A stretch of DNA of 64,000 nt, taken from positions 16,532-80,531 of the forward strand of contig CAILLM010000004.1 in assembly GCA_903835075.1 (NCBI GenBank). Reading direction: 5' to 3'. Position 1 is the stretch's first letter; each line of letters begins with the position of its first letter. This DNA comes from Candidatus Staskawiczbacteria bacterium (GTDB lineage: Bacteria; Patescibacteriota; Minisyncoccia; Minisyncoccales; Staskawiczbacteraceae). The notes beneath the pieces are model-generated. The model made no database searches. It worked only from the letters and a program-made list of their open reading frames with translations, and was not told the DNA's origin. A program made the position numbers and the translations under genes. Shown here in pieces: positions 23,804 to 64,000 of the stretch.

Positions 23804-23943
23804 ATTACGCTCGGTAATAAACTTTTTTCTTCGCTCGCCAAATCAAATTTTTGCTCGTCGGGGGAATGTCCCAAGGGCGATTACTCCTTCTCCAAAAATT
23901 TATTTGCCTCGCTTAAAAGTTTATTGTCTCGCTTCATTATTAT
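23804..23943 (+). repeat. Intergenic repeat element, copy A (CGCTCGG...CTTTTTTCTTCG ... TTATTGCCTCGCTT family)
   Basis: Both of its ends match the 56570-56663 spacer. It also contains an internal tandem of tatttgcctcgctt (23901-23914) and ttattgtctcgctt (23921-23934). Confidence 0.5.
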
Positions 23944-24849
23944 ATGCAATTTAATTTTACAAAGTATTCAAAAATATATTATATTATCTCAGGGATTTTA
24001 ATAGTTGGTGCAATTGTTTCACTGTCTATGTTTGGTTTGAAATTTGGAATTGAATTTGTTGGCGGAAGCAACATGGAAGTGAGTTTCCAAAATGCCAGAC
24101 CTTCAAATGAAGCAATCCAAAATGCAATAAAAGGTTTTGACTTAGGTGGAGTTACAGTCCAACCAACAGGAGCAAGTGGTGCTATTTTGCAATTTAAGGG
24201 TGTAGATGAAGCCACTCATCAGCAAATATTGGCCATGTTAAATAACCTAGCCCCAGTTACAGAAAAAAGCTTTCAATACATCGGGCCTTCAATTGGTCAG
24301 GAATTAAGAAACAAAACAGAAGTGGCAATTGCGTTAGCGTTGTTAGCAATTACCTTATATATAGCTTTTGCTTTTAGAAAAGTTTCTAGACCTGTTAATT
24401 CTTGGAAATATGGAGTAGCTTCATTGGTGGCATTATTTCATGATGTGTTAATACCAATTGGTGTTTTCTCTATTTTAGGAAAACTTTATAATGTTGAAAT
24501 CACAATTCCAATTGTTGCTGCATTGCTAACAATTTTGGGTTTCTCGGTACACGATACGATTGTTATTTTTGATAGAATTAGAGAAAACATTTTAAGAAGG
24601 GGAATGGGACAATTTGAAGAAACAGTAAACTTAAGCTTGTCTCAAACTTTAGGCAGATCTATTAGTACAGTTCTAACAGTTGAGTTTGTGCTTTTATCGC
24701 TTTATTTTTTTGGCGGAGAAACTTTAAAATACTTTGCCTTAGCCCTTATAATTGGTATTACTTCAGGGGCATATTCTTCTATATTTATTGCTAGCCCCGT
24801 GCTTGTGTCGTGGTATAAAAGAGCTGCTAAAAAAGAGGCAAAAAAATAG
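23944..24849 (+). CDS. secF: Protein translocase subunit SecF
   Basis: GIEFVGGS, SIGQELRNK, HDVLIPIGVFSI, GFSVHDTIVIFDRIREN. Confidence 0.92.
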   Translation: MQFNFTKYSKIYYIISGILIVGAIVSLSMFGLKFGIEFVGGSNMEVSFQNARPSNEAIQNAIKGFDLGGVTVQPTGASGAILQFKGVDEATHQQILAMLNNLAPVTEKSFQYIGPSIGQELRNKTEVAIALALLAITLYIAFAFRKVSRPVNSWKYGVASLVALFHDVLIPIGVFSILGKLYNVEITIPIVAALLTILGFSVHDTIVIFDRIRENILRRGMGQFEETVNLSLSQTLGRSISTVLTVEFVLLSLYFFGGETLKYFALALIIGITSGAYSSIFIASPVLVSWYKRAAKKEAKK

Positions 24850-41173: not shown

Positions 41174-41196
41174 ATTACCTGCCTGATGGCAGGCAG

Positions 41197-41597
41197 GTCT
41201 TAGTAAGACTATAAGCCGAATTCTGTATTACCCCGTAAAACGGGGGAACTGTGATTATCTGTCTGCCCATTCAATTACTCTCAGGGTCAAGCGAACTACT
41301 TTTCTCCGTCAACAAGTTTTAAAATCCATGAATGAATTTTTTAGGCTTTAAGCCCATGCTTGTCGAAGGGTTTGTTCTTGCGCCCAATAAGGATTTAGCC
41401 GTTTCAGCCCAACATTGCTGCTGAGATATACCCGTAGGGTATGCCAGGCGTTTCCACCTTTGCCGTTTCTGTTCGCACCTCGCACATTACTGTGGACGGC
41501 CGTTAGCCGCTATTATTTTAACTCCCGTTAGGGGCGTTGGTGTTCGGACTTTCCTCTCCAAACTTGCGTTTAGAGCAATCACTTATCTTGCTAAGAC
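41197..41597 (-). ncRNA. rnpB: RNase P RNA (bacterial)
   Basis: The - strand reads ...GGAGAGGAAAGUCCGAAC... (universal CR-I) and ...ACAGAAUUCGGCUUAU... (CR-V/P4 3' strand). The 5' GUCUUAG pairs with the 3' CUAAGAC as P1. It lies in an ORF-free, GC-richer stretch of about 400 nt. Confidence 0.9.
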
Positions 41598-47317: not shown

Positions 47318-48745
47318 TTATACTTCGAAAGATTGGCCCATTGTGGGAATTTCTATGGGCAAGCCTGGATGAGACTTTTCCATTAAATCTTTAAAAATTG
47401 TTGCTTGGGGAAGCTCTGTATGAACTAAAAATAGTTTTTGCAAATTTTTGACGTGAGAAATATATGAAGACAAATCATTTTGGTCAGCATGAGCTGAAAA
47501 TTCATGAAGAGTCTTTACTTGAGCTCTAATATTATATTCTTTGCCATAAATTTTTATTGGCGAAACATTTTCTTGAATTTTTCTACCTAAAGTATTTTCC
47601 GCCTGATAGCCTGTAATTAAGATTATATTCTGTGGATTCTCTATGTTATTTTTTAAGTGGTGCAAAACTCTTCCGCCTTCACACATCCCAGAAGCGGAAA
47701 TTATCATCATAGGGCCAGGCTTATTGTTTAAAGATTTTGATTCTTCTATTGTGCGTACATAGGTTATATTATTTAGCAAAAATGGGGAAGCTCCGCGGTA
47801 ACCAAAATCTTTTTGAAAATTACCATTAAAGTCTGTAACATATTTGGGGAAAATGTCTGTAATTTTTTCAGCTAGTGGGCTGTCTATATAAATTGGAATT
47901 GTGGGGATTGCTTTTTGGTTTATAAGTTTATGTAAAATATAAATAATATCTTGCGTTCTGCCCAATGAAAAAGCAGGAACAATAATTTTGCCTTTATTTT
48001 TTATCACTGTTGTAATTGCCCCTCTGAAGTTACCGGTTGCATCAGAAATTGGGTTGTGATTTTTATCACCATAGGTACATTCTGTAATAAGTGTATGGAC
48101 ATCTTCTTCAATATATTGTGGAGCTGGTAAAATGGGCGAGTTATCTCTACCTAAATCTCCAGTGAAAGCTAGGGTTTTTATTACTTGCCCTGAGCTTGCC
48201 GAAGGGTCGCCCTCTTTTATCTCTACATATATTATTGCAGACCCTAAAATATGACCTGCATCATAAAGTTTAAATCGTAAATTATCATTTAAAACAGTCC
48301 ACTGGTTGCTGTGTTTAAAATAATCAATTGTTTCAAAATGTTTTACTGCATTTAAAACATCTTGTTCACTATATATCGGATAAATTTGGTCAGCAGGATT
48401 TTCTACGTGCTTGTTAAAATATAGGGCATCTTGTTTTTGAATTTCAGCAGCGTCTAGCATAATATATTTTGCTATTTCAGCTGTAGCTGGTGTGCAATAA
48501 ATTTTTCCCTCAAAGCCATTTTTTACTAAAATGGGCAAGGTACCACAGTGGTCTAAGTGCGCATGGGAAAGTATAACAGCGTTTATGTCTTTAGCTTCAA
48601 AAGGGAGGGTGCTATTAAGCTTGTTTGAATCAGCTCTTTTCCCCTGATAGAACCCACAATCTAAGAGTAAATTATAGCCATTAGTTTGTATTAAGTGTTT
48701 AGAGCCTGTTACATTCTGGTCTGCTCCCAAAAAATTTATTTTCAT
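47318..48745 (-). CDS. MBL-fold beta-CASP family hydrolase (RNase J / CPSF-like ribonuclease)
   Basis: HAHLDHCG metallo-beta-lactamase motif, beta-CASP region, and a C-terminal H (FSAHAD). It contains a GC-rich in-frame insert encoding GDPSASSGQV. Confidence 0.8.
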   Translation of the reverse strand: MKINFLGADQNVTGSKHLIQTNGYNLLLDCGFYQGKRADSNKLNSTLPFEAKDINAVILSHAHLDHCGTLPILVKNGFEGKIYCTPATAEIAKYIMLDAAEIQKQDALYFNKHVENPADQIYPIYSEQDVLNAVKHFETIDYFKHSNQWTVLNDNLRFKLYDAGHILGSAIIYVEIKEGDPSASSGQVIKTLAFTGDLGRDNSPILPAPQYIEEDVHTLITECTYGDKNHNPISDATGNFRGAITTVIKNKGKIIVPAFSLGRTQDIIYILHKLINQKAIPTIPIYIDSPLAEKITDIFPKYVTDFNGNFQKDFGYRGASPFLLNNITYVRTIEESKSLNNKPGPMMIISASGMCEGGRVLHHLKNNIENPQNIILITGYQAENTLGRKIQENVSPIKIYGKEYNIRAQVKTLHEFSAHADQNDLSSYISHVKNLQKLFLVHTELPQATIFKDLMEKSHPGLPIEIPTMGQSFEV

Positions 48746-48871: not shown

Positions 48872-48942
48872 TGGGCCGTGGAGGAGTAGTACCTCGGCAG
48901 TCTCATAAGCTGCAGGCCCCCGTGCAATTCGGGGCGGCCCAA
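48872..48942 (+). tRNA. Atypical tRNA-like gene with anticodon CAU (Met/Ile2 class); no encoded CCA
   Basis: Hand-folded cloverleaf. Acceptor tgggccg/cggccca, D stem gagg/cctc, anticodon stem gcagt/gctgc with loop cuCAUaa, T stem ccccg/cgggg. The D-loop (aguagua) lacks GG and the T-loop reads ugcaauu instead of uuc..., so it may be a degenerate tRNA or tRNA-like element. Confidence 0.5.
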
Positions 48943-49032
48943 CACTTCGACTCGCTTCGCTCGTTCAGTGCAGGCATTTGTCTATTCATTAATTATTTGT
49001 TATTAAAAGTAAATACTTAATGAGTCGAAGTG
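48943..49032. repeat. 11-bp perfect inverted repeat cacttcgactc / gagtcgaagtg flanking an AT-rich 68-nt spacer
   Basis: The arms at 48943-48953 and 49022-49032 are exact reverse complements. The repeat lies between the tRNA-like gene and the GIY-YIG ORF. Confidence 0.8.
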
Positions 49033-49059
49033 CCCTGAGCTTGTCGAAGGGCGTTCATT

Positions 49060-49320
49060 ATGGAAAAATGGTTTACATATATTATTGAATGTGAGGATAA
49101 AAGTTTGTATACTGGATGTACAAATAATTTACAACGTAGGTTTGAGAATCACCGATCGGGAAATGGCGGCAGGTATACTGCTTCGCATAAAGTAGTAAAA
49201 ATTTTATTTTTTGAAGAATGTCAAAGTAGAAGTGAAGCGTTAAAGAGAGAATCACAAATAAAGGGATGGCCACGAAGTAAAAAATTGCAGCTTATTGAGA
49301 GTCATAAAATGCCGGGGTAG
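49060..49320 (+). CDS. Stand-alone GIY-YIG nuclease domain protein (UPF0213/YhbQ-like)
   Basis: WFTYIIECEDKSLYTGCTNNLQRRFENH ... SRSEALKRESQIKGW: GIY-YIG motifs (YIIE / YTG), conserved R, and E. The stop codon lies inside the first 10 nt of the next tRNA. Confidence 0.8.
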   Translation: MEKWFTYIIECEDKSLYTGCTNNLQRRFENHRSGNGGRYTASHKVVKILFFEECQSRSEALKRESQIKGWPRSKKLQLIESHKMPG

Positions 49321-49384
49321 CTCAGTTGGTGAGAGCGCAACACTCATAACGTTGAGGTCGTGGGTTCGACTCCCACCCTCGGCA
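49311..49384 (+). tRNA. tRNA with anticodon CAU (elongator Met or Ile2/lysidine type); no encoded CCA
   Basis: Canonical cloverleaf. Acceptor gccgggg/cctcggc, D arm gctc-agttggtga-gagc, anticodon loop cuCAUaa, T arm gtggg-ttcgact-cccac. It lacks the initiator hallmarks (no C1xA72, no 3 G-C pairs in the anticodon stem). Confidence 0.85.
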
Positions 49385-49469
49385 CAAATAAGATTGAAAA
49401 TTTATCGCCTGTCGCCTACGCGAATTTGCGGGCTTTGCCTCGCCGAAGGTTCGCTATGGCGAACCACAG

Positions 49470-49548
49470 GCGGGCATAGTCCAGCCTGGTTTAAGACGCC
49501 TCCCTGTCACGGAGGAGATCGGGGGTTCAAATCCCCCTGCCCGCGCCA
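49470..49548 (+). tRNA. tRNA-Asp (GUC) with encoded CCA
   Basis: Acceptor gcgggca/tgcccgc, anticodon stem cctcc/ggagg with loop cuGUCac, T arm ggggg-ttcaaat-ccccc, 3' gCCA. The D-loop is long (11 nt). Confidence 0.85.
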
Positions 49549-49583
49549 TCAGTTTTAGTATCTAGTGATGCTGAGACCGTAGA

Positions 49584-49611
49584 AAAACCACCTTTTAATA
49601 GAGGTGGTTTT
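49584..49611 (+). terminator. Rho-independent terminator after the tRNA cluster
   Basis: aaaaccacc / ggtggtttt stem with a 10-nt loop and trailing Ts. Confidence 0.6.
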
Positions 49612-49699
49612 AGTTTGACTTTTATTTAATTTCGTTGTAATCTCTACATACCCACAACGTGGTGTTTTGGGCGAACTTTGAAAGAACAATAACGATGAA

Positions 49700-50000
49700 A
49701 AAGAATATTGTAATTTTTTCAATAACGGTATTAACGTATATAGCTAATGTAGGAGCAACTTCGACCATTTTTGATAGAGGCAAGCAACGCGGCGGTGTTC
49801 TTCGTAGAGCCCTTCTTGGACTCACCTTCGATGGCGGCGGATGTGGTGGCGATGGGCGCGATCAGCGCCCATGACTGGTATTTTCTCATGGCCGTTGTAT
49901 TTTATTGTTTGGCGCTGGTCCACCTGGACTTCCTACGAGGAATCAGTGGTCGCAACCATAAAGTCCTAAAATACTTAGAACCTTGTGGTTGCGACCAGTA
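49700..50000. other. GC-richer unassigned segment with mutually overlapping short ORFs; possible gene remnant
   Basis: Three track ORFs in different frames and strands overlap here, and none is recognisable. An unlisted 56-codon - strand ORF (start 49889) begins MRKYQSWALIAPIATTSAA (signal-peptide-like). The segment contains a 12-bp inverted repeat. Confidence 0.3.
49947..49997. repeat. 12-bp perfect inverted repeat tggtcgcaacca / tggttgcgacca
   Basis: Arms at 49947-49958 and 49986-49997, with a 27-nt loop. Confidence 0.8.
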
Positions 50001-50106
50001 AGAGATTGTTGTTAATGAACTATGCTAAACATTATATTAAGTCTATAAAAAACAAAATAACATGTCAAGAGTTGTCGGCCCAAAAATTATTTGGTAGAAT
50101 AAAAAT

Positions 50107-50745
50107 ATGAAAAAAGAAACTTTAATAACAATTGTTGCAATAATTATAATTATTGCATGCATAATTGTTGGAGTAGTATATGTGGTAAAGCCCAACCAGC
50201 AACCTACAAATACTGCCACGCCAACAACAAATAATCAGCCAGCAAATAATTCAACAACAAAAAATATGCAACACACAATAACAATAAAAACAAATATGGG
50301 TGACATAAGTTTTGTAACTTACGACGGTGACGCCCCAAACACAGTTAAAAATTTTATAACTTTAGCAGAAAAAGGTTTTTATAATGGCTTAACATTCCAC
50401 AGGGTTATTCCAGGTTTTATGATTCAGGGCGGTGACCCCGTAGGCAATGGTACTGGCGGTCCAGGGTATAAATTTGATGATGAATTAAATCCACAAACAG
50501 ATTCTTATAAAGCAGGGTATAAAAAAGGAGTTGTGGCAATGGCTAACGCCGGACCAAACACCAACGGTAGTCAGTTTTTCATAATGGTGTCTGATTATCC
50601 TTTACCAAATAATTATACAATTTTTGGTAAAGTAGTTTTGGGGCAAGATGTGGCAGACGCAATTTCAAAAGTGCAGACTGGGTCAAATGATATGCCAGCT
50701 TCAAAAGTCACAATGGAAAAAGTCACAGTAACCGAAAATAAATAA
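50107..50745 (+). CDS. ppiB: Membrane-anchored cyclophilin-type peptidyl-prolyl cis-trans isomerase
   Basis: N-terminal TM helix, a T/N/P-rich linker, then FHRVIPGFMIQGGDP, GGPGYKFDDE, MANAGPNTNGSQFFI. Confidence 0.9.
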   Translation: MKKETLITIVAIIIIIACIIVGVVYVVKPNQQPTNTATPTTNNQPANNSTTKNMQHTITIKTNMGDISFVTYDGDAPNTVKNFITLAEKGFYNGLTFHRVIPGFMIQGGDPVGNGTGGPGYKFDDELNPQTDSYKAGYKKGVVAMANAGPNTNGSQFFIMVSDYPLPNNYTIFGKVVLGQDVADAISKVQTGSNDMPASKVTMEKVTVTENK

Positions 50746-50776
50746 AAAAATGTCCGGCGATTTGCGGTCGCCGGAC
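50744..50776 (-). terminator. Rho-independent terminator of the GH16 gene (- strand)
   Basis: gtccggcga / tcgccggac 9-bp GC stem. On the - strand it is followed by a T-run (the complement of the aaaaaaa at 50744-50750). Confidence 0.7.
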
Positions 50777-50797
50777 CTGTTAGGAGTTTGAAGTACG

Positions 50798-52471
50798 TTA
50801 TCGTACCACAGCCGTTGCTTTTGCCACGGCTTTTGGATTGGTGGTAGCAGTAGCGGTAATTGTTGCTTTGCCAACAGATTTTGGCCAAACTCGGCCATCT
50901 GAATCAACATAGGCAATTGCCGGATTGCTAGACGCCCAAATGACGCCCGCAGTGATTGGATATCTTTCCATATCAACTGCGCTGGGGACTAATTGTTGGG
51001 GCGTGCCTGATGTCAATGACAAGTAGAATTTGGTTGGCGACAGTGTGATTGTTTTCAACACGGGCGATGTTCCCGAACCTGTCCTGAAGACATCATCAAA
51101 CAAATAGCCGTTGAGTGATGCTGGTAATCCGCCACCAGAACTCAGTGGAATGTTTATGCTGGCTGGTACCAAATAAGCACGAACTTCTTCTGCATCCACA
51201 TCCGAACCCCCGGTGGTCATGTAGGCGGTCCATGTGCCGCCTTTTTTGATGTCTGTTAACGGAGCAGCAAAGGTGGGTTTTGTCCACCAACCGCCGAAGA
51301 CATTGATGTAAACAGCAATTTTCCAGTTTTTGTAATCAGCACCAATTCCATTAACGATGCCCGAGGCATAGCCCTGGGTACCAAGAGCTGGCGTTTTTTG
51401 GATAACAACATTGATTGGTGATTTCACTGTAAGCGCGGCTGGATCACTTGTTATGCCGTTGGCCGACGCAGTTATATTTGTGGTACCCGGGCTTATGGTT
51501 GTTATTAAACCGGTTGAACTAATTTTCGCAACCGCCGGATTACTGGAAGTCCACGTTAATTTAATGGGTGTAACAATGGTGTTTTGGTTTTGGTCAATTG
51601 CCGACGCAAGGAACTGTTGCTGTTTGTTTGCGCCATAAGATAGCGGTCCAGCAGGGTCGATTTCTATGGTTGTTAAAACCTGGGGACTTACTTGTGAGAC
51701 ACTAACAGAATCAACGCTCATAGACCAAACTTGATATTTTCCGAAGACGAAGCTGGAGTCATATGCATCGGTCCACGAAGAATCGGGAACCCATCCATTG
51801 AAATGGATGTACATAGGGCCCTTTGGTATGGGTGATTGGTTTGTGACTGTTCGCGCCAATATGCCATCAACATACCATGATACTTGGTTGGGTAACCAGA
51901 CAATTTGATATGTATGATATCCTGAAGTGTTGCCACCTGCAGAATATTTAACAAATTGTGGGTTTCCAACTCCGAGCACTTCGTTGCCGTAGGTGTTGGT
52001 GTAGAAGCCTTCCGGGTGGTTTCCCATAAATTCAAAGTCAATTTCATCATGGCGTGTGTCGCTATACGAAACCGGCGGACTGTACAAAAAGAATGCAAAA
52101 ACAGTTCCGCGACGGATAGTGTCCACTTTGAGTCGGGCTGTGATTGTAAGTCCGTTGCCCACAAAGAGCGGGCCGTTGCTGATGAGGTCGGTTCCGTCAA
52201 ACCATGAACCTTCGCTATAACTATAGGAATCGATGGTGATATTTACGGTGCTGTTCCCAACAATTGGTAGATCTCCTGGGGCGGTGTTGAGAAAGGTGCG
52301 TCCAATATAGAAACCCTCATTCAAGCTTGGGATGTGCCAAAAGTTTGTATTGACTACCGGGTATTTTGCCCCGGGAGCGGCTGTGAAGTGGTCGGAGAAA
52401 ATGGTGGTATCCCCGAATACAGTGGTTGTAAGAATTAATGCAATGGCGGTGGCGAAGGCGGTGGTTTTCAT
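50798..52471 (-). CDS. Secreted family 16 glycoside hydrolase (laminarinase/licheninase-like) with two Big_2 Ig-like domains
   Basis: GH16 catalytic motif HDEIDFEFMG. Big_2 patterns LTWTSSNPAVAKISSTGLITTISPGTTNITA and VIWASSNPAIAYVDSDGRVWPKSVGKATITATA. I placed the start at the MKTTAFATAIALILTTTVFG signal peptide (ATG 52471) rather than 52510. Confidence 0.85.
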   Translation of the reverse strand: MKTTAFATAIALILTTTVFGDTTIFSDHFTAAPGAKYPVVNTNFWHIPSLNEGFYIGRTFLNTAPGDLPIVGNSTVNITIDSYSYSEGSWFDGTDLISNGPLFVGNGLTITARLKVDTIRRGTVFAFFLYSPPVSYSDTRHDEIDFEFMGNHPEGFYTNTYGNEVLGVGNPQFVKYSAGGNTSGYHTYQIVWLPNQVSWYVDGILARTVTNQSPIPKGPMYIHFNGWVPDSSWTDAYDSSFVFGKYQVWSMSVDSVSVSQVSPQVLTTIEIDPAGPLSYGANKQQQFLASAIDQNQNTIVTPIKLTWTSSNPAVAKISSTGLITTISPGTTNITASANGITSDPAALTVKSPINVVIQKTPALGTQGYASGIVNGIGADYKNWKIAVYINVFGGWWTKPTFAAPLTDIKKGGTWTAYMTTGGSDVDAEEVRAYLVPASINIPLSSGGGLPASLNGYLFDDVFRTGSGTSPVLKTITLSPTKFYLSLTSGTPQQLVPSAVDMERYPITAGVIWASSNPAIAYVDSDGRVWPKSVGKATITATATTNPKAVAKATAVVR

Positions 52472-52624
52472 AACTGATTTGTGGTGATTTGAGAAAGCCC
52501 TTAGAAGCAAAAACCCTGTACACTCGTGCAGAGAATAATATTATTTCAAGGAGCCTTTTCGTAATTTAACCATATGAGATATTAGCCTTTTTGTCAACAG
52601 GGTATTTTTTAACTATTCTCGGTG

Positions 52625-56569: not shown

Positions 56570-56663
56570 AAAATCGCTCGGCAACAATCTTTTCTTCGGT
56601 GGTCAGGCACTTCGTGTCTCTGAGACCTTCGAAAAGCTTATTGCCTCGCTTATAAACAAAATT
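56570..56663 (+). repeat. Intergenic repeat element, copy B (same family as 23804-23943)
   Basis: Shares a left end (cgctcggcaacaatcttttcttcg vs cgctcggtaataaacttttttcttcg) and a right end (ttattgcctcgctt) with copy A. Confidence 0.5.
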
Positions 56664-56984
56664 ATGGCAAAAAATAATGGTGCAATAAAAATGTTAGAAG
56701 GAGCAATTGCCGGACTAGCCTTGGGAGTTGCTGCTAGTATGTTTATGTCTTCAAAAAAAGGCAAAGAATTAAAAAATAACATTGCTGACATTTCTGCTGA
56801 CTTTTATAAATATATTTCTCCAAAATTAAAGAAAGCTCAAAAAATGGGGGAGAAGCAGTACAAAGAATTTATGAAAAATTCAGTGGATCAATATGCAAAA
56901 GCAAAGAAACTTACTACAGCTATGACAGATGAATTGGTAAAAGAAGCCCAGCAAACCTGGAAGCACATCGCAAAACACATCTAG
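56664..56984 (+). CDS. YtxH-domain protein
   Basis: LEGAIAGLALGVAASMFMSSKKGKELKN N-terminal helix followed by a long amphipathic helical region. Confidence 0.7.
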   Translation: MAKNNGAIKMLEGAIAGLALGVAASMFMSSKKGKELKNNIADISADFYKYISPKLKKAQKMGEKQYKEFMKNSVDQYAKAKKLTTAMTDELVKEAQQTWKHIAKHI

Positions 56985-57040: not shown

Positions 57041-57709
57041 ATGGAATATCCAATTAGAATTAATAAATATTTAAGAGATAAGGGCTTGGCCTCGCGACGT
57101 GAGTCTGATAAGCTTGTTGAGAGTGGGCTTGTTTTTATTAATGGAAAGCGCGTTGATAATGGAGCAATGGTTGCTGAAACTGATAAAGTAATGGTGAAAG
57201 AGCAAAAAGGCAAAGATAAAAAACAATATGTATATTTGGCATATTATAAGCCAAGAAATTTGCCAACTCAAGATTTGCCAGGTAAAAAAAGCGTAATTAC
57301 AGAATGGAAGCCAAAAGGGCTTTATCCTGTTGGGAGGCTCGACAAAAGCTCAGAAGGTTTATTGTTGCTTACAAATGATGGCAGGTTTGCTAGAGAAGTT
57401 TTAGATACAAGTTCTAAATATGAAAAAGAATACGTAGTCACAGTAAAAGAGCCTTTAAGGATTGGTGTTGTTAGAATTTTTAACGAAGGTGTGGACACAC
57501 AAGCTTTGGGGAAATTATTGCCTGCGAAAGCTCGGATTATAAATCCTTCAAAAATTCAGGTAGTTTTAAATGAGGGGAAACGCCATCAAATAAGGGTTAT
57601 GTTTAACGAATTAAATTATACAATTTCTTCTTTAAAACGGGTTCGCATTGGTGAAATAAAAATAGGAACTTTAAAACCGGGTGAAACTCGCTCAATAAAG
57701 GGTATTTAA
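57041..57709 (+). CDS. RsuA/RluB-family pseudouridine synthase with an S4 domain
   Basis: S4 domain IRINKYLRDKGLASRRESDKLV, catalytic GRLDKSSEGLLLLTNDG, KRHQIRVM. I moved the start to ATG 57041, because the track start at 57005 lies inside the upstream terminator. Confidence 0.85.
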   Translation: MEYPIRINKYLRDKGLASRRESDKLVESGLVFINGKRVDNGAMVAETDKVMVKEQKGKDKKQYVYLAYYKPRNLPTQDLPGKKSVITEWKPKGLYPVGRLDKSSEGLLLLTNDGRFAREVLDTSSKYEKEYVVTVKEPLRIGVVRIFNEGVDTQALGKLLPAKARIINPSKIQVVLNEGKRHQIRVMFNELNYTISSLKRVRIGEIKIGTLKPGETRSIKGI

Positions 57710-59640
57710 TGAATAGAGATAAAATAATTGACTACATCAAAATTTTATCTTTGCCACTTTTCTTGGTGGTTTTATTTGTAATACAGAATGAAGCATTCAA
57801 CTATTGGCTTAATATTTATTCAAAAACTTATTTTTTTAGATTGCTTTGGGTTACTTTTGGATTAGGGGTTGTTTTCTATGGGCCGGTGTTACTTTTTACT
57901 CCTCTGGGCATAGGAAAAAGAAGATACAAATATTGGTATCTTCTTTTAATTTCTTTTTTAATTTCTGCTATTTTTTTAGCGCAATTTTTGTATTATCGTT
58001 ATTCGCAAAGTTTTTTACAATTTTCAGCAATAAAATATTTAGCACAAGCAGATAGTGTCTCAGGCACTGTTAAGGTTTTACTTACGCCAGAGCTTTTATT
58101 ATTTTTTAGCAATACCATTTTAGTTTTAATTGTTTGGTTAATTTTTGCTAGGAAAAAAACTAAAGAATTATCTCTCCCTAATTGGGAAAAAGTAATTATA
58201 ATTTTTGCAATGATGGCGATAGTATTTTTTGGATATAAATATTTATTGTATACAGAGAAAAAAGAGTGGGGAAGCACTAGCAGGCTTTATACAGATGTGT
58301 ATGATTTAAAGGCTTTAGTTGGAAAAATGGGCATCATGAATTTTTTTCTTGAAGACGGATTTAAATATGCATTGCGAAGTAATTTAGTCGGTGAAGCCGA
58401 TAAGACATTTTTAAAAACATTTGAACAAAATAGGATTGCTTCGCGCGTAGATTTACCAAAACCCGCCTTTGCCAAAGGCTTCGGTGAGGCAAAGGGGAAA
58501 AATTTAATAATTATTCAGGTTGAGTCTTTAGAGGATGCTGTTATCAACCAGACAATTGGTGGGCAAGAAATAACACCTAATTTAAATCAGCTAGCACGAC
58601 AAGGTTTATATTTTAATAATTATTATACGCAAGTTGGCCCGGGTAACACAGCTGATGCCGAATTTTCCACAATGAACTCTTTATATCCATTGCCAGATGA
58701 TGTTGTCTTCATAAACTACGCTAAAAATTCTTATAAAGCTTTGCCCAAAATTTTAGTAAATAATGGCTATCAGACTTTTGCCATGCATGGCGATGTACCA
58801 ACATTTTGGAACAGGTCTAATATTTACCCTGGCTTGGGTTATCAAAAAGCATATGGTCTATCTGATTATAAAATTACAACCCCTGTTGGACAGGGGCCTT
58901 CTGCGCTGGGTGACGAAGATTTGTTTTTTCAATCATTGCCAAGGTTGCAAAGTTTCAAACAACCGTTTATGGCAACTTTAATAACAATGAGTTCCCACAC
59001 GCCGTTTATTTTGCCTGAAAATTTGCAAACTCTAAACATTCCCGAAAAAACAAATTTAAACCAAATTCAGTGGGAATATTTACAAAGTATTCATTATACA
59101 GATAAAGCAATTGGTGAGTTTATAGATGGTTTAAAAAAGGACGGGCTTTATGACAATTCGTTAATTTTAATTTGGGGAGACCACGGCAGTTTTACAAATA
59201 TTTCTTCTGTTGTTGGTGAAAATAAAATGTTGCCAGAATTGAGTAACAGCCAGGTGCCGTTAATTATTTTAAATTCTGGTTTTAAAAATCAAATAATGTC
59301 TGAGCCTGCAAGTCATTTAGATATTTATCCCACAATAACAAATTTATTGGGAATTAATCCACCAAAATCAATTTTGGGACAAGATTTATTAAACACAAAA
59401 ACACCTGTTGAGACCCACTTTGAACTTGTTTCTGGTGGTATAGATGCAATTTTAACTCCAACTTTGTCATACGAGTCTGATGAAACAGGATTATTTTTGA
59501 ATGGTTCATGCAAATCTGCAACAACAAAAAAATCTTTACCAATAACTGATTGCCAAAAAATTTACTCTGAACAATCAAATAATATAAAAGCCTCAAACAT
59601 TATTGTTCGTGGCAACTTGCTATCTGCCATCTCTAAATAA
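57709..59640 (+). CDS. LtaS-like sulfatase-family phosphoglycerol/phosphoethanolamine transferase (5 TM plus an extracellular domain)
   Basis: N-terminal polytopic region, then NLIIIQVESL, NTADAEFSTMNSLYP, FAMHG, and SSHTPF motifs typical of LTA-synthase-family enzymes. Confidence 0.8.
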   Translation: MNRDKIIDYIKILSLPLFLVVLFVIQNEAFNYWLNIYSKTYFFRLLWVTFGLGVVFYGPVLLFTPLGIGKRRYKYWYLLLISFLISAIFLAQFLYYRYSQSFLQFSAIKYLAQADSVSGTVKVLLTPELLLFFSNTILVLIVWLIFARKKTKELSLPNWEKVIIIFAMMAIVFFGYKYLLYTEKKEWGSTSRLYTDVYDLKALVGKMGIMNFFLEDGFKYALRSNLVGEADKTFLKTFEQNRIASRVDLPKPAFAKGFGEAKGKNLIIIQVESLEDAVINQTIGGQEITPNLNQLARQGLYFNNYYTQVGPGNTADAEFSTMNSLYPLPDDVVFINYAKNSYKALPKILVNNGYQTFAMHGDVPTFWNRSNIYPGLGYQKAYGLSDYKITTPVGQGPSALGDEDLFFQSLPRLQSFKQPFMATLITMSSHTPFILPENLQTLNIPEKTNLNQIQWEYLQSIHYTDKAIGEFIDGLKKDGLYDNSLILIWGDHGSFTNISSVVGENKMLPELSNSQVPLIILNSGFKNQIMSEPASHLDIYPTITNLLGINPPKSILGQDLLNTKTPVETHFELVSGGIDAILTPTLSYESDETGLFLNGSCKSATTKKSLPITDCQKIYSEQSNNIKASNIIVRGNLLSAISK

Positions 59641-59734
59641 ATAGGATTTTGATATGGCGCCATCTTGGTACTGTTTTTTTCGTTTATAGCGGGAGTGATG
59701 CAGATGTATAGTTTGGAGATGATTGCCTGAAAAA

Positions 59735-59766
59735 TTGACAGTAGGTTCCGGGGGGGGGGGTATTAT
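59735..59766 (+). promoter_or_regulatory. Promoter-like TTGACA ... TATTAT with a G11 homopolymer in a 20-nt spacer
   Basis: ttgaca at 59735-59740, spacer gtaggttcc + G11 (G-run 59750-59760), and tattat at 59761-59766. The ATG is at 59792. Confidence 0.5.
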
Positions 59767-59791
59767 TAGGTAATATAAATTTTTTTTATTA

Positions 59792-61117
59792 ATGAAAAAT
59801 AAAATATCTATAGCATCTTTTTTGGTGGCATATTGTTTAACGATAATATCCCCTTCTACATTAGCTGTCTCACTTAAGCCGGGTATTATGCCCACCATTC
59901 CGGCTATAATCCCTCAAGTAGTCGATATTTCTAAGGCGAATTTTTTAGCGCCTAATTTTCATGTTAGTAATTTAAATATTAATGAAATATCGGGAAGCGA
60001 AATAAAGGGTAATTTTACGACGACTAATCAAGAAAATTATTATACGGCAGACTTAAATTACGAAATGAAATTGTTTAAAGGCACAGATTTCCAAAGTTTA
60101 AAATTAATTGATCTCGTAGCTATAAGTGATCCATTTTTTATACAACCAAATGGAGAAGTCGCCAAATCTTTTGTATACAATTATCCACAAAATATTGTTA
60201 GCGGAGATTACACCTTAAGAATACAAATAATCACAGGTAGGGGTATGGAGCTCGGTTGGCAAGATAAAGTTATTTTGCTAAAAGGAAATAATAAATTTTT
60301 AGATATAGATTTTTTAACTGCTAAAGTTTTATCTGGAACAATTTCGGGAACTCCTTTAGAGGGCATAAACGTGGCCTCAACAGATGATGTTTCTGGCAGT
60401 TTAAAAGTCCAAAATACAGGTAAGGCAATTACTGTTGTTCCACAAATAAAAATTTACAAAAGGCAAATTAACATGCCCGTAGTAAAAGAATATAATGATT
60501 CGGCAATAACTTTTGCCAAAGGTGAAACAAAAACAGTAACTTTAAAAATGCCAAAATTAGATATACCAGAATCATATTTGGCTGAAGTTAAATTTTTTGA
60601 AAACAATCAGCAAGTTTCTGGTTTACAATATTTTAGATGGGTAGTGGAAGGTGACAGCGGGAAAATAATTTACATAAAAGCAGATAAAGATTTTTATAAA
60701 GCAGGAGACGCAATTAATTTAACAATTCAAACAGTTGGTCCTGCCGATGGCAGCAACGCAGGGACAGGCCAATTGCAAGTAATTGTTTCTGATAAAAACA
60801 AAAAACAAATTGCTAAAATTTTAAAAGATGTGTCGCTAACCGGCGGATTGCTTCCATCAATAATTTCAATTCCTGTTAAATATGATTTAGTTTCTCCAAT
60901 AATTGACGTTAAACTAACTAAAGCAGGAAAAATATTAGATGAGCAGAATATTAATTTACCCGTATTTTCTTCAACAGCTATCCAATTAGAAAAACAGATA
61001 TTGCAAAAAAAATCATCAAACATAAATTATTTAATATATGTGTTTGCGATCTTAGTTATCGTGGCTATTATTTTGATTTTCATATTTTATAAATTGAAAT
61101 TTAGAAAAATTAAATGA
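59792..61117 (+). CDS. Secreted protein with a C-terminal TM anchor (surface protein, function unknown)
   Basis: Signal peptide (ASFLVAYCLTIISPSTLA), a beta-rich body, and a C-terminal hydrophobic helix plus basic tail (YLIYVFAILVIVAIILIFIFYKLKFRK). Confidence 0.75.
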   Translation: MKNKISIASFLVAYCLTIISPSTLAVSLKPGIMPTIPAIIPQVVDISKANFLAPNFHVSNLNINEISGSEIKGNFTTTNQENYYTADLNYEMKLFKGTDFQSLKLIDLVAISDPFFIQPNGEVAKSFVYNYPQNIVSGDYTLRIQIITGRGMELGWQDKVILLKGNNKFLDIDFLTAKVLSGTISGTPLEGINVASTDDVSGSLKVQNTGKAITVVPQIKIYKRQINMPVVKEYNDSAITFAKGETKTVTLKMPKLDIPESYLAEVKFFENNQQVSGLQYFRWVVEGDSGKIIYIKADKDFYKAGDAINLTIQTVGPADGSNAGTGQLQVIVSDKNKKQIAKILKDVSLTGGLLPSIISIPVKYDLVSPIIDVKLTKAGKILDEQNINLPVFSSTAIQLEKQILQKKSSNINYLIYVFAILVIVAIILIFIFYKLKFRKIK

Positions 61118-62901
61118 AAATATCTCGCGCATTATTTTTTGCTATAATCACCTTCGCCTTAGGTTTTGCTGGCGTTGTTTCTGCTGCTCCTCCCGCTCCT
61201 GGGAAGCCTATTTTACAAAATACCAATAATCCAAATGTCACAAGTCTTACAAATCCAACATTTACAGTTTCCTGTGAAACTGGTGATGATGTTTATTTAA
61301 TGTCAGACGGAAATGGTATAGGAGTATCACCAGACTATGTTTTTGGTAGATGTGCAAGCGGGTTGGTAGCCCTTACAGTGCCCAGTGGTAAATTGAGTAC
61401 AGGGGTAGTACACAATATAACTGCCATTCAATACAGGTTGCCATACGATTTTTATGGTTCATATCCTAACAATTTATCTCCAAGTTCGCCAGCTCTTTCA
61501 TTGACTATAAATATAAGCACGGGTACGAGCGGAGGCACATTCCCTGTCAATCCTACTAGTTTTCCTGATATTTGCAGTCTCAAGTCTCTTTATAGCTTAC
61601 CTAATCTATCTGGAGCTTGTAATTCCAGCTGTCCTTACGGGAGTCAGAAATGCACCATGACAGACGCGTATGGTGATTGTACGCTATCTACGCCATGCTG
61701 TACGCCAAATAGATATTGTCCCAATAAAGGTACTATCAACTCTACAAATTGTGGTGGCGTAGAATATACAAACGTGCCACTTTATTATAATGGTTCTTTT
61801 GCTTACTCATATGATTCCTGTGGCGCATATAATAGTGGCACATGGAGTCCCGATAGTACTTATAGTAGTCGCCTTTCACTAGTTATAAACCAAGGGCCAA
61901 CAGCAAATGCTGAATATTGCCCAGGTGATCATATACCTACTAGTGGATCAGCAACAATAACCGCATGTAGCAATTCCGTAGCCCCACTTGTGGAGGTTTG
62001 TTTCGACACCAGTAGTTGCGTTGCTATTACAGGTATCTCTAATAACTTTAATGGAGGGATCACTTGGGATTCATATTGGGCTGTTGGTGGGGGAAGTGGT
62101 GAAGCAGCCTTTGCAGGTTTAAGATATATTGAACCTTTTCAATATAAAACTTCTGGACTCCCGGTAGAAACTGATTTAGGAGATGTCGAGACGCCTATTT
62201 ATATAGGGCACGCTGGTCATTGTGGTACAGCCACAACGGGCGGGGGCACATATTCTTCGGCGCCACCCACTAATACTCTTTGTGACCAAAGCAGAAATTA
62301 TGGAAATACAACTCCTACACACAGTGGTAGTCTATGGAGTTGGACATGTAAGGGAGCTACTGGAAGTTGTGCAGGGCAAGACCAAGCTTGCACAGCACTA
62401 TATCAGTATCAGGCGCCCCTTGTTGCGACCTGTTCGGTTTCTCCAGATTCTGCATGTGCAGGAACCTCGGTAACTTGGACAGCATCTGCTAGCGGAGGCA
62501 CAGGTTCTTATTCTAGCTATTATTGGAGTGGAACGGAGAGTTTTTATGGGCAGAGTGTTAACAAAACTTATTCAATATCTAATGGATTGTCATCAACCAA
62601 AACAGAACATGTCACAGTGACCGACTCTTCGGGTAACTCTGCAACTAGCGCCTCTTGTGTTGCTACAATAAACCCAGCTGTTGTAATTTGTGGAAATGCA
62701 GAGGGTGGTTATTTGGCTGGAGAAGATTTTCCACGAGAACCATGGGATTACCCTTACAACTATTGTGCGATAGGAACTTTCACGCCCTCAGCCTCAACCT
62801 ACACTTATAGAGTGCGTGCAATAAATAAAAATACTCAAACAGGCGCTGATCAAATTGGGAATTGGTCAAATGTTGTTAATGCTACACCGCCTTCACAATA
62901 A
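61114..62901 (+). CDS. Secreted Cys/Gly/Ser/Thr-rich protein (surface/adhesin-like, function unknown) with an FN3-like C-terminal end
   Basis: Signal peptide MKISRALFFAIITFALGFAGVVSA and many Cys. The C-terminus, YTYRVRAINKNTQTGADQIGNWSNVVNATP, resembles the last strands of a fibronectin type III domain. It has an ATGA overlap with the upstream gene. Confidence 0.75.
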   Translation: MKISRALFFAIITFALGFAGVVSAAPPAPGKPILQNTNNPNVTSLTNPTFTVSCETGDDVYLMSDGNGIGVSPDYVFGRCASGLVALTVPSGKLSTGVVHNITAIQYRLPYDFYGSYPNNLSPSSPALSLTINISTGTSGGTFPVNPTSFPDICSLKSLYSLPNLSGACNSSCPYGSQKCTMTDAYGDCTLSTPCCTPNRYCPNKGTINSTNCGGVEYTNVPLYYNGSFAYSYDSCGAYNSGTWSPDSTYSSRLSLVINQGPTANAEYCPGDHIPTSGSATITACSNSVAPLVEVCFDTSSCVAITGISNNFNGGITWDSYWAVGGGSGEAAFAGLRYIEPFQYKTSGLPVETDLGDVETPIYIGHAGHCGTATTGGGTYSSAPPTNTLCDQSRNYGNTTPTHSGSLWSWTCKGATGSCAGQDQACTALYQYQAPLVATCSVSPDSACAGTSVTWTASASGGTGSYSSYYWSGTESFYGQSVNKTYSISNGLSSTKTEHVTVTDSSGNSATSASCVATINPAVVICGNAEGGYLAGEDFPREPWDYPYNYCAIGTFTPSASTYTYRVRAINKNTQTGADQIGNWSNVVNATPPSQ

Positions 62902-62928
62902 AAATACTATTTTAAAATAGTATTTGTG

Positions 62929-62956
62929 AAAATCGGCGCTTGTGCCGATTTTTTGT
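62929..62956 (+). terminator. Rho-independent terminator (preceded by a 24-bp AT palindrome at 62902-62925)
   Basis: aaaatcggc / gccgatttt stem, then a T-run. Upstream, aaatactatttt/aaaatagtattt is a perfect palindrome. Confidence 0.7.
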
Positions 62957-62986
62957 TGTGGTAAAATACAGTGTCACCATACAATT

Positions 62987-64000
62987 ATGATAAATAAAGG
63001 AATTGCCACATTTACTTTAGATTACGGAAAATGCCCGAAGTGGCTTTTTGACCGAATGGTTTTGTTGTCCAAAAGAATGATTTATGCAATTATTGCCGAA
63101 GAAGGGCCAGATGAATTTATTAAAAGAATTTCAGACCCTGTTTGGTTTCAACCTTTGGGTACAGTTTTGGCTTTTGATTGGAACGCTTCTGGTTTAACAA
63201 CAATTTTAACAGCAGCTCTAAAAGAGGCAATACGCGGAAGTAAAAAAGATTTGGGTATTTTTATTTGTGGAGGAAAAGGAAAAACAAGTTTAAAAACACC
63301 AGAACAAATTTTAACTTGGGCTGAAAGAATTTCAATGCCAGAAGAATCAGCCAACGCCTTAGTTTACAATTCAAAAATGGCGGCAAAAGTTGATAGCTCT
63401 CTTGTACAAGATGGTTTTCAAATTTATCACCATTGTTTTTTCTTTTCTAAAAATGGTGCATGGACTGTTGTGCAACAGGGCATGAATGTAGAAGAACAAT
63501 CAGCAAGAAGATATCACTGGTATTCAAAAGATTTAACAGATTTAATTCAAGAGCCGCACTCAGGAATTTCTTCTGAAGTAAAAATTAAAGAAGTTTTAAA
63601 TATGACCTCAAACAAAAGTGAAAAAAATAGGGGACTAAGTACAGAGCTTGTTTCGCAAAGTTTTAATACTTTGATGAAAGACATAACTTTGTTGCGAAAA
63701 TATTTTACGCCATTGTCGCAAATGGTTGCTGTGCAAGACGGGAAGGAGCAATTGACGCTTTTAAACTTGGAAAATAAAGAATTTAATTGGCACCCCGTTG
63801 TTACAGAAGACTTTTCAAAATCAAAATATTTAGAAAAAATTTTATGGAGACTGTGTGACCAACAACCAGAAAATTATGAAAAACTTTTAGCAACTCCAGG
63901 CGTTGGCCCAAAAACTATAAGAGCCTTGGCCTTGGTTTCTGAAGTAATTTATGGAGCAAAACCTTCTTATGAAGATCCTGCTAGGTATTCTTTTGCTCAT
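62987..64000 (+). CDS. DUF763-family protein, 3' partial (runs off the window; absent from the ORF track)
   Basis: My translation from ATG 62987 is open for 338 codons to the window end: MINKGIATFTLDYGKCPKWLFDRMVLLSKRM...ISDPVWFQPLGTVLAFDWNASGLTTILT...TPGVGPKTIRALALVSE. The GK.P.WLF.RM / DP.WFQ / DW..SG.TT blocks match my memory of DUF763. Confidence 0.7.
   Translation, partial: MINKGIATFTLDYGKCPKWLFDRMVLLSKRMIYAIIAEEGPDEFIKRISDPVWFQPLGTVLAFDWNASGLTTILTAALKEAIRGSKKDLGIFICGGKGKTSLKTPEQILTWAERISMPEESANALVYNSKMAAKVDSSLVQDGFQIYHHCFFFSKNGAWTVVQQGMNVEEQSARRYHWYSKDLTDLIQEPHSGISSEVKIKEVLNMTSNKSEKNRGLSTELVSQSFNTLMKDITLLRKYFTPLSQMVAVQDGKEQLTLLNLENKEFNWHPVVTEDFSKSKYLEKILWRLCDQQPENYEKLLATPGVGPKTIRALALVSEVIYGAKPSYEDPARYSFAH

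What the first reader, a model, noticed from the sequence alone, without database searches (positions are those of the whole stretch)
59735..59766. G11 homopolymer inside a promoter spacer upstream of two surface-protein genes: candidate phase-variation switch
A consensus -35 (TTGACA, 59735) and a -10-like TATTAT (59761) are separated by 20 nt, 11 of which are a pure G run (59750-59760). This is the only long homopolymeric G/C tract I saw in this AT-rich window.

Loss of about 3 G would give the optimal 17-nt spacer. Tract-length changes by slipped-strand mispairing are an established ON/OFF/volume mechanism for surface genes in Neisseria, Haemophilus and other bacteria.

The downstream genes (59792, 61114; ATGA-coupled) encode a signal-peptide/TM-anchored protein and a large Cys-rich secreted protein. 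These are the kind of products usually placed under phase variation.
Basis: partly seen in the sequence, partly recalled or inferred. Interest (0 to 1): 0.7.

Follow-up and report, generated by a model that had tools for sequence, protein, structure and literature searches.

The report
G11 tract in surface-operon promoter
An 11-G run sits between two near-perfect promoter boxes in front of a two-gene surface-protein operon of an uncultured Staskawiczbacteria (CPR) bacterium; it looks like the slippage switches that pathogens use on surface proteins, but six assemblies all show 11 G, so switching is not shown.

Summary
TTGACA (59735-40), a 20-nt spacer ending in G11 (59750-60) and TATTAT (59761-66) lie 25 nt before the ATG of a two-gene operon (59792-62901). 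G11 is the only G/C run longer than 7 in 64 kb (expected about 0.001). The hexamer pair is unlikely by chance (P about 0.015). It is placed like the window's other promoters, but those have 17-nt spacers; G8 would give 17.

The products are extracellular. One has a signal peptide, three Ig-like domains and a C-terminal membrane anchor. The other is a secreted orphan with 26 Cys.

Four other assemblies with DNA, one inferred from gene spacing, and the window all carry G11. No relative (60% identity or less) or likely paralogue has a tract. There is no clear terminator upstream, so read-through may blunt any switch.

The cassette is a lineage-specific insertion. The same gene shows other population variation: an A8-to-A9 frameshift that removes the anchor, and a 10-SNP patch identical to the paralogue.

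Verdict: a credible but unproven candidate contingency promoter of the Neisseria porA/opc type. It would be a new member of a known kind, in a lineage where I found no such report. Moderate interest.

The parts
59735..59740 (+). -35-like hexamer TTGACA (6/6)
   Evidence: One of only 5 TTGACA sites on the + strand in a window depleted of the motif.
59741..59749 (+). Non-repetitive part of the spacer (GTAGGTTCC)
59750..59760 (+). G11 homopolymer, the candidate hypermutable tract. It fills the 3' part of the 20-nt spacer and abuts the -10.
   Evidence: Identical in L001-L004 and L053-L055.
59761..59766 (+). -10-like hexamer TATTAT (5/6). Its 3' end is 25 nt before the ATG.
59772..59777 (+). Alternative -10-like TAATAT. 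A TAATAT lies at the same distance (20 nt) from the ATG in the paralogous cassette (L051). It has no -35 partner, because the G tract lies where a -35 would be.
   Evidence: by inspection.
59655..59681 (+). Weak hairpin followed by T7 after the LtaS-like gene. Not a convincing terminator.
   Evidence: -4.4 kcal/mol, z +0.68. Not found by the scan.
59792..61117 (+). Gene 1, 441 aa: signal peptide, about 30-residue disordered linker, three Ig-like beta-sandwich domains, C-terminal helix with membrane anchor (residues about 408-440).
61005..61012 (+). A8 tract in gene 1, just before the anchor. It is A9 in one assembly (L060), where the frameshift removes the anchor and uncouples the ATGA overlap.
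61114..62901 (+). Gene 2, 595 aa: signal peptide, 26 Cys, no membrane segment, Ig-like C-terminal end inferred from sequence motifs and weak hits to proteins carrying CARDB/PKD Pfam domains. An orphan protein.
62902..62953 (+). Two tandem terminator hairpins that close the operon.
   Evidence: -19.7 kcal/mol, z -6.0.

Best explanation
The 151-nt gap between the LtaS-like gene and the operon holds the operon's own sigma-70-type promoter: TTGACA, 20 nt, TATTAT. Eleven of the 20 spacer bases are a G run.

At the modal length G11 the hexamers are 3 bp too far apart and rotated out of phase, so the promoter should be weak. Slipped-strand mispairing during replication would produce G10, G9 and G8 subclones with 19-, 18- and 17-nt spacers and stepwise stronger transcription. 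G12 and longer would be weaker still.

The result would be heritable, reversible, cell-to-cell differences in the amount of a membrane-anchored three-Ig-domain protein and its co-translated Cys-rich secreted partner. These are probably part of the cell-surface apparatus of this CPR bacterium.

Shown: the tract, the hexamers, their position, the operon structure and the extracellular nature of the products. Inferred: that these hexamers are the operative promoter, that the tract slips at a useful rate, and that spacing controls expression.
For: - G11 is unique in the window and about 1000-fold above expectation.
- The hexamer pair has P about 0.015 by chance. TTGACA is otherwise selected against in the window.
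- The window's other recognisable promoters are TTGNNN-17-TATAAT-like, with the -10 ending 20-35 nt before the ATG. The candidate fits in position (25 nt) and differs only in spacer length. G8 gives 17.
- No alternative well-spaced hexamer pair scoring above 9 of 12 exists in the gap.
- The operon is bounded by a strong double terminator.
- The products are surface or secreted proteins.
- The cassette is a lineage-specific insertion in a variable island.
- The same gene shows other population-level variation: an A8/A9 frameshift, a patch identical to the paralogue, and repeated contig breaks.
- Established knowledge: G/C tracts of 8-9 or more are hypermutable in all bacteria tested. Tracts in promoter spacers control porA, opc and fetA in Neisseria (fetA C10-14 intergenic, PMC5953494).
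Against: - No length variation is seen. The window and four assemblies with DNA (ERZ27313080, ERZ18626419, ERZ18625277, ERZ27313095) are G11, and ERZ1426734 has the same 151-nt gene spacing. One of these is a slightly different strain (11 SNPs).
- The modal state would be near-OFF, three steps from the optimum. This is unusual for known switches, where the common alleles sit at or next to the optimum.
- No relative (60% identity or less) and not the paralogous cassette has a tract. Their promoters look like TTGCTT/TTGTTT-17-TAAAAT, with a conserved TTGAC 8 nt further upstream. The window's TTGACA could therefore correspond to that upstream element rather than to a -35.
- No clear terminator after the LtaS-like gene, so read-through may feed the operon.
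- No other simple-repeat candidate in 64 kb.
Confidence: 0.45

Rival explanations
1. The tract is incidental and has no regulatory role. The G run arose at the left junction of the inserted cassette or by runaway slippage. Transcription comes from read-through of the rluB/LtaS-like unit, or from a -35-independent promoter using TAATAT (59772). Tract length is then irrelevant to expression.
For: - The cassette 59641 to about 62957 is absent from the closest LtaS relatives, and the tract lies in its left border region.
- No convincing terminator upstream.
- TAATAT lies 20 nt from the ATG in both the window and the paralogous cassette.
- Relatives have a TTGAC element that is not spaced as a -35.
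- Consensus length is invariant.
Against: - A neutral G11 should drift in length between populations, yet six of six are G11, including a strain variant.
- A perfect TTGACA in a genome that avoids it, plus TATTAT at the canonical distance from the ATG, has P about 0.015 by chance.
- No flanking repeats or mobile-element marks explain a junction scar.
Confidence: 0.27
2. The tract is a fixed attenuating spacer. The hexamers are the real promoter, but the G11 is held by selection at one length to keep a consensus promoter weak, or to give the spacer a rigid G/C-rich structure or a protein-binding site. There is no biologically meaningful switching.
For: Same promoter evidence as the main explanation. 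All assemblies have G11, which fits selection on one length.
Against: - A homopolymer is the least stable way to encode a fixed 20-nt spacer. Any mixed sequence would do the job without slippage load.
- No known regulator site or RNA or DNA structure is found there.
Confidence: 0.2
3. Sequencing or assembly artefact, such as poly-G from two-colour Illumina chemistry or a chimeric join.
For: Poly-G artefacts are common in NextSeq and NovaSeq data (own knowledge).
Against: The same G11 with identical flanks on both sides is found inside long contigs of four other assemblies (the scaffold and k141 contig naming points to at least two assembly pipelines; the underlying studies were not checked). 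Such artefacts sit at read and contig ends and are much longer.
Confidence: 0.02

Closest known systems
Neisseria meningitidis porA (poly-G), opc and fetA (poly-C): homopolymer in the -35/-10 spacer
   Same: A G/C homopolymer of about 9-14 nt lies between -35 and -10 of a surface-protein gene. Spacer length sets expression in steps (ON, intermediate, OFF). Slipped-strand mispairing is the engine. fetA C(10-14) is listed as intergenic in PMC5953494; the porA and opc details are from my own knowledge.
   Different: In Neisseria, length variation and its effect on expression are proven, and common alleles sit at or near the 17-nt optimum. Here the only allele seen gives 20 nt. Nothing is measured, and the organism is an uncultured freshwater CPR bacterium.
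Campylobacter jejuni poly-G contingency loci
   Same: A small AT-rich genome in which rare long G tracts (G8-G11) stand out against composition and mark surface-structure genes.
   Different: Most C. jejuni tracts are inside genes (translational switching), there are many per genome, and length heterogeneity is seen within cultures. Here there is one tract in 64 kb, it is in a promoter, and no heterogeneity is seen. Whether this organism lacks mismatch repair is unknown.
Mycoplasma hyorhinis vlp poly-A and Haemophilus influenzae hifA/B TA-repeat promoter spacers; Bordetella pertussis fim poly-C
   Same: A simple repeat in the promoter changes the spacing of promoter elements and thereby the expression of surface lipoproteins or fimbriae. 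Mycoplasma is also a reduced-genome, host-dependent bacterium. (Own knowledge.)
   Different: Different repeat units and gene families. Those systems are verified experimentally.

Membership tests
Simple-sequence-repeat transcriptional phase variation (contingency promoter) | A homopolymeric or short-unit repeat long enough to slip (G/C of about 8-9 or more), far above compositional expectation. | tested here: met
   G11. The next longest run is G7. Expected 0.001 per window.
Simple-sequence-repeat transcriptional phase variation (contingency promoter) | The repeat lies within the promoter of the controlled gene (within 200 bp of the ATG by the PhasomeIt rule; ideally between -35 and -10). | tested here: met
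   The tract ends 31 nt before the ATG and lies between TTGACA and TATTAT. The rule is from PMC5953494. The promoter is predicted by motif only; the transcript start is not mapped.
Simple-sequence-repeat transcriptional phase variation (contingency promoter) | Repeat number differs within or between populations of the same strain. | tested here: inconclusive
   Consensus length is G11 in the window and four assemblies, and gene spacing is the same in a fifth.
Simple-sequence-repeat transcriptional phase variation (contingency promoter) | Expression changes reversibly with repeat number. | not testable with these tools
   Needs reporter assays or paired genotype and transcript data.
Simple-sequence-repeat transcriptional phase variation (contingency promoter) | The controlled genes encode surface-exposed or otherwise environment-facing products. 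| tested here: met
   441 aa: signal peptide, three Ig-like domains, C-terminal anchor (AlphaFold2 pLDDT 86.7; generic MG/FN3 fold matches). 595 aa: signal peptide, 26 Cys, no membrane segment.
Simple-sequence-repeat transcriptional phase variation (contingency promoter) | The tract is present, with different lengths, in homologous loci of related strains or species. | tested here: not met
   None of about 50 related loci (60% aa identity or less) has a G/C run of 7 or more upstream of the homologue (L046's G9 lies about 160 nt upstream but inside the preceding gene). The probable paralogous cassette (L051) has an AT-rich promoter. No relatives between 60% and 100% identity exist in the databases.

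The most novel reading that the evidence does not exclude
This would be the first contingency locus recognised in a Candidate Phyla Radiation (Patescibacteria) bacterium. A recently inserted surface-protein cassette would be varied at three levels: promoter strength through a hypermutable G tract, membrane anchoring through an A8/A9 frameshift just before the anchor, and sequence through gene conversion from a paralogous cassette in the same genome. That would give these ultra-small, probably host-attached cells pathogen-style bet-hedging at their surface.
Probability: 0.25. Interest if true: 0.65.

Novelty: new member of a known kind. Interest (0 to 1): 0.4.

Why it matters
CPR/Patescibacteria are thought to live attached to other microbes, and how they manage their surface proteins is almost unknown. 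Two full-text searches (four term-sharing papers each; I opened one from each search) turned up no report of repeat-mediated promoter switching in them.

If the tract does switch, it would extend a mechanism known from host-adapted pathogens to free-living freshwater episymbionts. It would also mark this Ig-domain/Cys-rich protein pair as a likely host- or phage-facing structure, and it can be tested with existing metagenomic reads.

If the tract does not switch, this is simply an odd spacer in one lineage.

Tried and rejected
- **RNA element or riboswitch in the gap:** no Rfam match above noise and no significant fold.
- **Mobile-element borders around the cassette:** no meaningful direct or inverted repeats.
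- **Other simple repeats in the window:** none.
- **Tract inside a longer ORF or leader peptide:** the ORF starts at the first ATG after a stop. The minus-strand 92-aa ORF across the tract overlaps gene 1 and is spurious.
- **Reiterative transcription from a start inside the G run:** no suitably spaced promoter upstream, by inspection.
- **DnaA-box-like TTATCCACA, seen upstream of relatives' promoters:** not enriched in the window.
- **Contig ends as a proxy for tract heterogeneity:** L005 ends 35 nt before the tract and L059 starts 43 nt after it. Neither sits at the tract edge, so this is not informative.
- **Intermediate relatives for a length comparison:** none between 60% and 100% identity for the 441-aa protein. 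The 595-aa protein is an orphan. The nearest LtaS homologue (78%) has no cassette.
- **Function of the 441-aa protein from fold search:** only generic tandem Ig/MG/FN3 matches with low TM-scores.

Full report
**What is there.** The sequence reads aaaaaTTGACAgtaggttccGGGGGGGGGGGTATTATtaggtaatataaattttttttattaATG.
- TTGACA is at 59735-59740, G11 at 59750-59760 and TATTAT at 59761-59766. The spacer is 20 nt.
- The ATG of a 441-aa ORF is at 59792. The next ORF (595 aa) starts at 61114 inside an ATGA overlap.
- The window is 34% G+C. It has no C run of 6 or more, and its only other G runs of 6 or more are three G6 and one G7. A run of 11 is expected 0.001 times.
- TRF finds no other simple-repeat array.
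- The finding's coordinates and description are exact.

**Is the promoter reading reasonable?**
- The consensus scan does not list the site because it allows spacers of 16-18 nt only.
- I looked at every gap of 55 nt or more upstream of a gene in the window. The clear promoters are at genes 22382, 24931, 26056, 37072 and 45894. They are TTGNNN-17-TATAAT-like, with the -10 ending 20-35 nt before the ATG.
- The candidate scores 11 of 12 and its -10 ends 25 nt before the ATG. It differs from the others only in the 20-nt spacer.
- An 11-of-12 match or better with any spacer of 15-21 nt occurs in 1.45% of random 151-nt sequences of intergenic composition.
- TTGACA is depleted in the window (20 sites against 42 +/- 7 expected). 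Only five are on the gene strand, and two of those sit in intergenic regions directly upstream of genes.
- No other well-spaced pair exists in the gap. The G run itself occupies the place where a -35 for the downstream TAATAT (59772) would be.
- Removing three G gives 17 nt.
- There is no Rfam match and no significant RNA fold in the gap.

**The unit controlled.**
- After the upstream LtaS-like sulfatase gene (57709-59640; Pfam Sulfatase; LtaS_N) there is only a weak hairpin plus T7 (-4.4 kcal/mol, z +0.7). Read-through is therefore possible.
- After the 595-aa gene there are two strong tandem hairpins (-19.7 kcal/mol, z -6.0).
- The 441-aa protein belongs to a family found only in Candidatus Staskawiczbacteria metagenome bins: 54 clusters, the next nearest at 60% identity.
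- AlphaFold2 with 29 homologues gives a confident model (pLDDT 86.7). It has an N-terminal signal helix, a disordered linker, three beta-sandwich domains (56-163, 170-285, 291-388) and a long C-terminal helix holding the membrane segment (hydropathy).
- Foldseek gives only generic macroglobulin-MG/FN3/Ig matches.
- The 595-aa protein has a signal peptide, 26 Cys and no membrane segment. It has no homologues apart from weak hits (15-17% of the query) to proteins that carry CARDB or PKD Pfam domains.

**Does the tract vary?** This is the key test, and I could only do it at consensus level.
- Exact-protein look-ups returned the same locus from ERZ27313080, ERZ18626419, ERZ18625277 and ERZ27313095. 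All have G11 and identical flanks.
- ERZ1426734 has no DNA on file but shows the same 151-nt gene spacing.
- ERZ18626419 is a slightly different strain (11 SNPs in 7.6 kb) and is still G11.
- So the tract is real and its modal length is stable. Minority alleles cannot be seen without reads.
- Contig ends near the tract (L005 ends at 59715, L059 starts at 59803) do not sit at the tract edge and are uninformative.

**Relatives.**
- About 50 loci encoding homologues (60% identity or less) were fetched from GTDB genomes and JGI metagenomes. None has a G/C run of 7 or more in the region upstream of the homologue.
- In most of them the homologue directly follows a Cys-rich secreted-protein gene.
- Where the homologue has its own promoter (L007, L024, L035, L051), the conserved pattern is TTGCTT/TTGTTT-17-TAAAAT, with a conserved TTGAC 8 nt further upstream. 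A TTATCCACA-like box precedes it in L007, L024 and L035; L051 starts at the TTGAC, so its upstream is unseen. L043 (TTGTTT-17-TATAAT behind the box and TTGAC) and L052 (TTGACT-18-TATAAT behind the box) are variants.
- This raises the possibility that the window's TTGACA corresponds to that upstream element and not to a -35.

**Origin of the cassette.**
- In the nearest LtaS relative (78% identity) the LtaS gene is followed directly by the AddA-like helicase gene.
- In the next relative (72%) it is followed by a 208-aa gene, DUF763, a PKD protein and then the helicase.
- In the window it is followed by the 441/595 pair, DUF763, a 297-aa gene, CYTH and the helicase.
- Nucleotide homology with L061 stops at the LtaS stop codon and resumes about 30 nt before DUF763.
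- The whole stretch from 59641 to about 62957, tract included, is therefore a lineage-specific insertion in a variable island. No flanking repeats were found.

**Other variation in the same operon.**
- A second cassette (P0002, 460 aa, followed by 290-aa and 539-aa genes) shares 84% nucleotide identity with 60350-60996 and 90% with 62689-62919.
- P0002, the identical LtaS protein and the identical 595-aa protein all list a longest contig of 208,849 nt. They very probably lie on one contig, which would make P0002 a paralogue in the same genome.
- The ERZ18626419 strain differs from the window at 10 clustered sites (60472-60646). All ten carry the P0002 base, and they are the only ten differences between the two cassettes in 60440-60700. 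This is either gene conversion or an assembler path switch between paralogues.
- L058 is a mosaic with a P0002-type 5' part and a window-type 3' part. Its 5' end is fused to an ABC-ATPase fragment and looks chimeric.
- L060 (ERZ18626337) has A9 in place of A8 at 61005-61012. This shifts the frame just before the membrane anchor and ends the ORF 22 nt before the next ATG.
- Seven assemblies break inside the 441-aa gene at five different places.
- These observations fit a locus under diversifying pressure, but each could also be an assembly effect.

**Mechanism and weighting.**
- The best reading (0.45) is a promoter-spacer slippage switch or volume control of the porA/opc/fetA type, with the population mode in the weak (20-nt) state.
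- Against it: invariant consensus length, a mode three steps from the optimum, absence from relatives, possible read-through, and ambiguity about which hexamers are used.
- The rivals are an incidental junction tract with transcription from elsewhere (0.27), a fixed attenuating spacer (0.20) and an artefact (0.02).

**Literature and novelty.**
- Two full-text searches for phase variation or homopolymeric tracts in CPR/Patescibacteria returned four papers each. I opened one from each search. The only related item is a hypervariable coding repeat in a Gracilibacterium (PMC6851277), which is a different mechanism.
- The bioinformatic criteria used for Neisseria phasomes (a simple repeat within 200 bp of the ATG; fetA C10-14 intergenic) are met here (PMC5953494).
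- The finding would thus be a new member of a known kind in an unexplored lineage. It is credible, cheaply testable with existing reads, and unproven.

Noticed in passing
window 61005-61012; L060 82-94: The A8 tract in the 441-aa gene is A9 in assembly ERZ18626337. The contig is otherwise 100% identical. The frameshift deletes the C-terminal membrane anchor and ends the ORF 22 nt before the 595-aa start. It is either a real slippage variant or an assembly error.
   Followed up: partly
window 60472-60646; L003/L054: The strain in ERZ18626419 has 10 clustered SNPs here and only 1 elsewhere in 7.6 kb. All ten equal the sequence of the P0002 cassette (L051). This is either gene conversion between paralogous surface-protein cassettes or an assembler path switch.
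   Followed up: partly
L051 (P0002 cassette); window 60350-60996 and 62689-62919: A second cassette (460-aa, 290-aa and 539-aa genes) is 84-90% identical to parts of the window operon. It is probably on the same 208,849-nt contig as the window locus, because P0002, P0055 and P0175 list the same longest-contig length. Its promoter has no G tract.
   Followed up: partly
L058 1-1000: A mosaic contig: an ABC-ATPase fragment, then a P0002-type 5' half of the gene (100% to L051), then a window-type 3' half. Probably chimeric.
   Followed up: partly
L059; window 59803-63232: A contig from ERZ27313081 is 100% identical across the cassette (59803-63052) and then about 85% identical in the start of DUF763 (27 mismatches in 180 nt). 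Either the cassette is shared between diverged strains or the join is chimeric.
   Followed up: no
window 59641-62957 compared with L061-L063 and the P0056 place: The interval between the LtaS-like gene and the AddA-like helicase gene is a variable island in Staskawiczbacteria. Its content differs in each of the three closest genomes.
   Followed up: partly
L007, L024, L035, L043, L052 upstream of the 441-aa homologues: A conserved TTATCCACA/TTATTCACA (DnaA-box-like) motif followed by a TTGAC-containing promoter region; in L007, L024, L035 and L043 the TTGAC lies about 8 nt upstream of a TTGCTT/TTGTTT-17 promoter, in L052 it is itself spaced 18 nt from TATAAT. L052 carries the box twice. The motif is not enriched in the window.
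   Followed up: partly
L046 1089-1097; L022 5544-5551: A G9 and a G8 run lie inside coding regions of Cys-rich or secreted-protein genes of the homologous clusters in two relatives. These are possible translational slippage sites.
   Followed up: no
window, whole: TTGACA is about two-fold depleted (20 sites against 42 expected, fewer than in all 100 shuffles). 54 of 56 long ORFs are on the + strand, and GC skew is positive throughout.
   Followed up: partly
window 23901-23934 and 56638-56651: The motif TTATTGCCTCGCTT occurs twice in tandem before the gene at 23944 and once before the YtxH-like gene at 56664, always within 45 nt of the ATG. There are 3 matches against 0.86 expected.
   Followed up: no
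window 41196-41594 (-), 48872-49548 (+), 49000-52600: RNase P RNA is on the minus strand. There are three tRNA genes (Met, Met, Asp). A local G+C rise to 0.44-0.46 coincides with the only two long minus-strand ORFs (47318-48745 and 50798-52471). Not examined.
   Followed up: no
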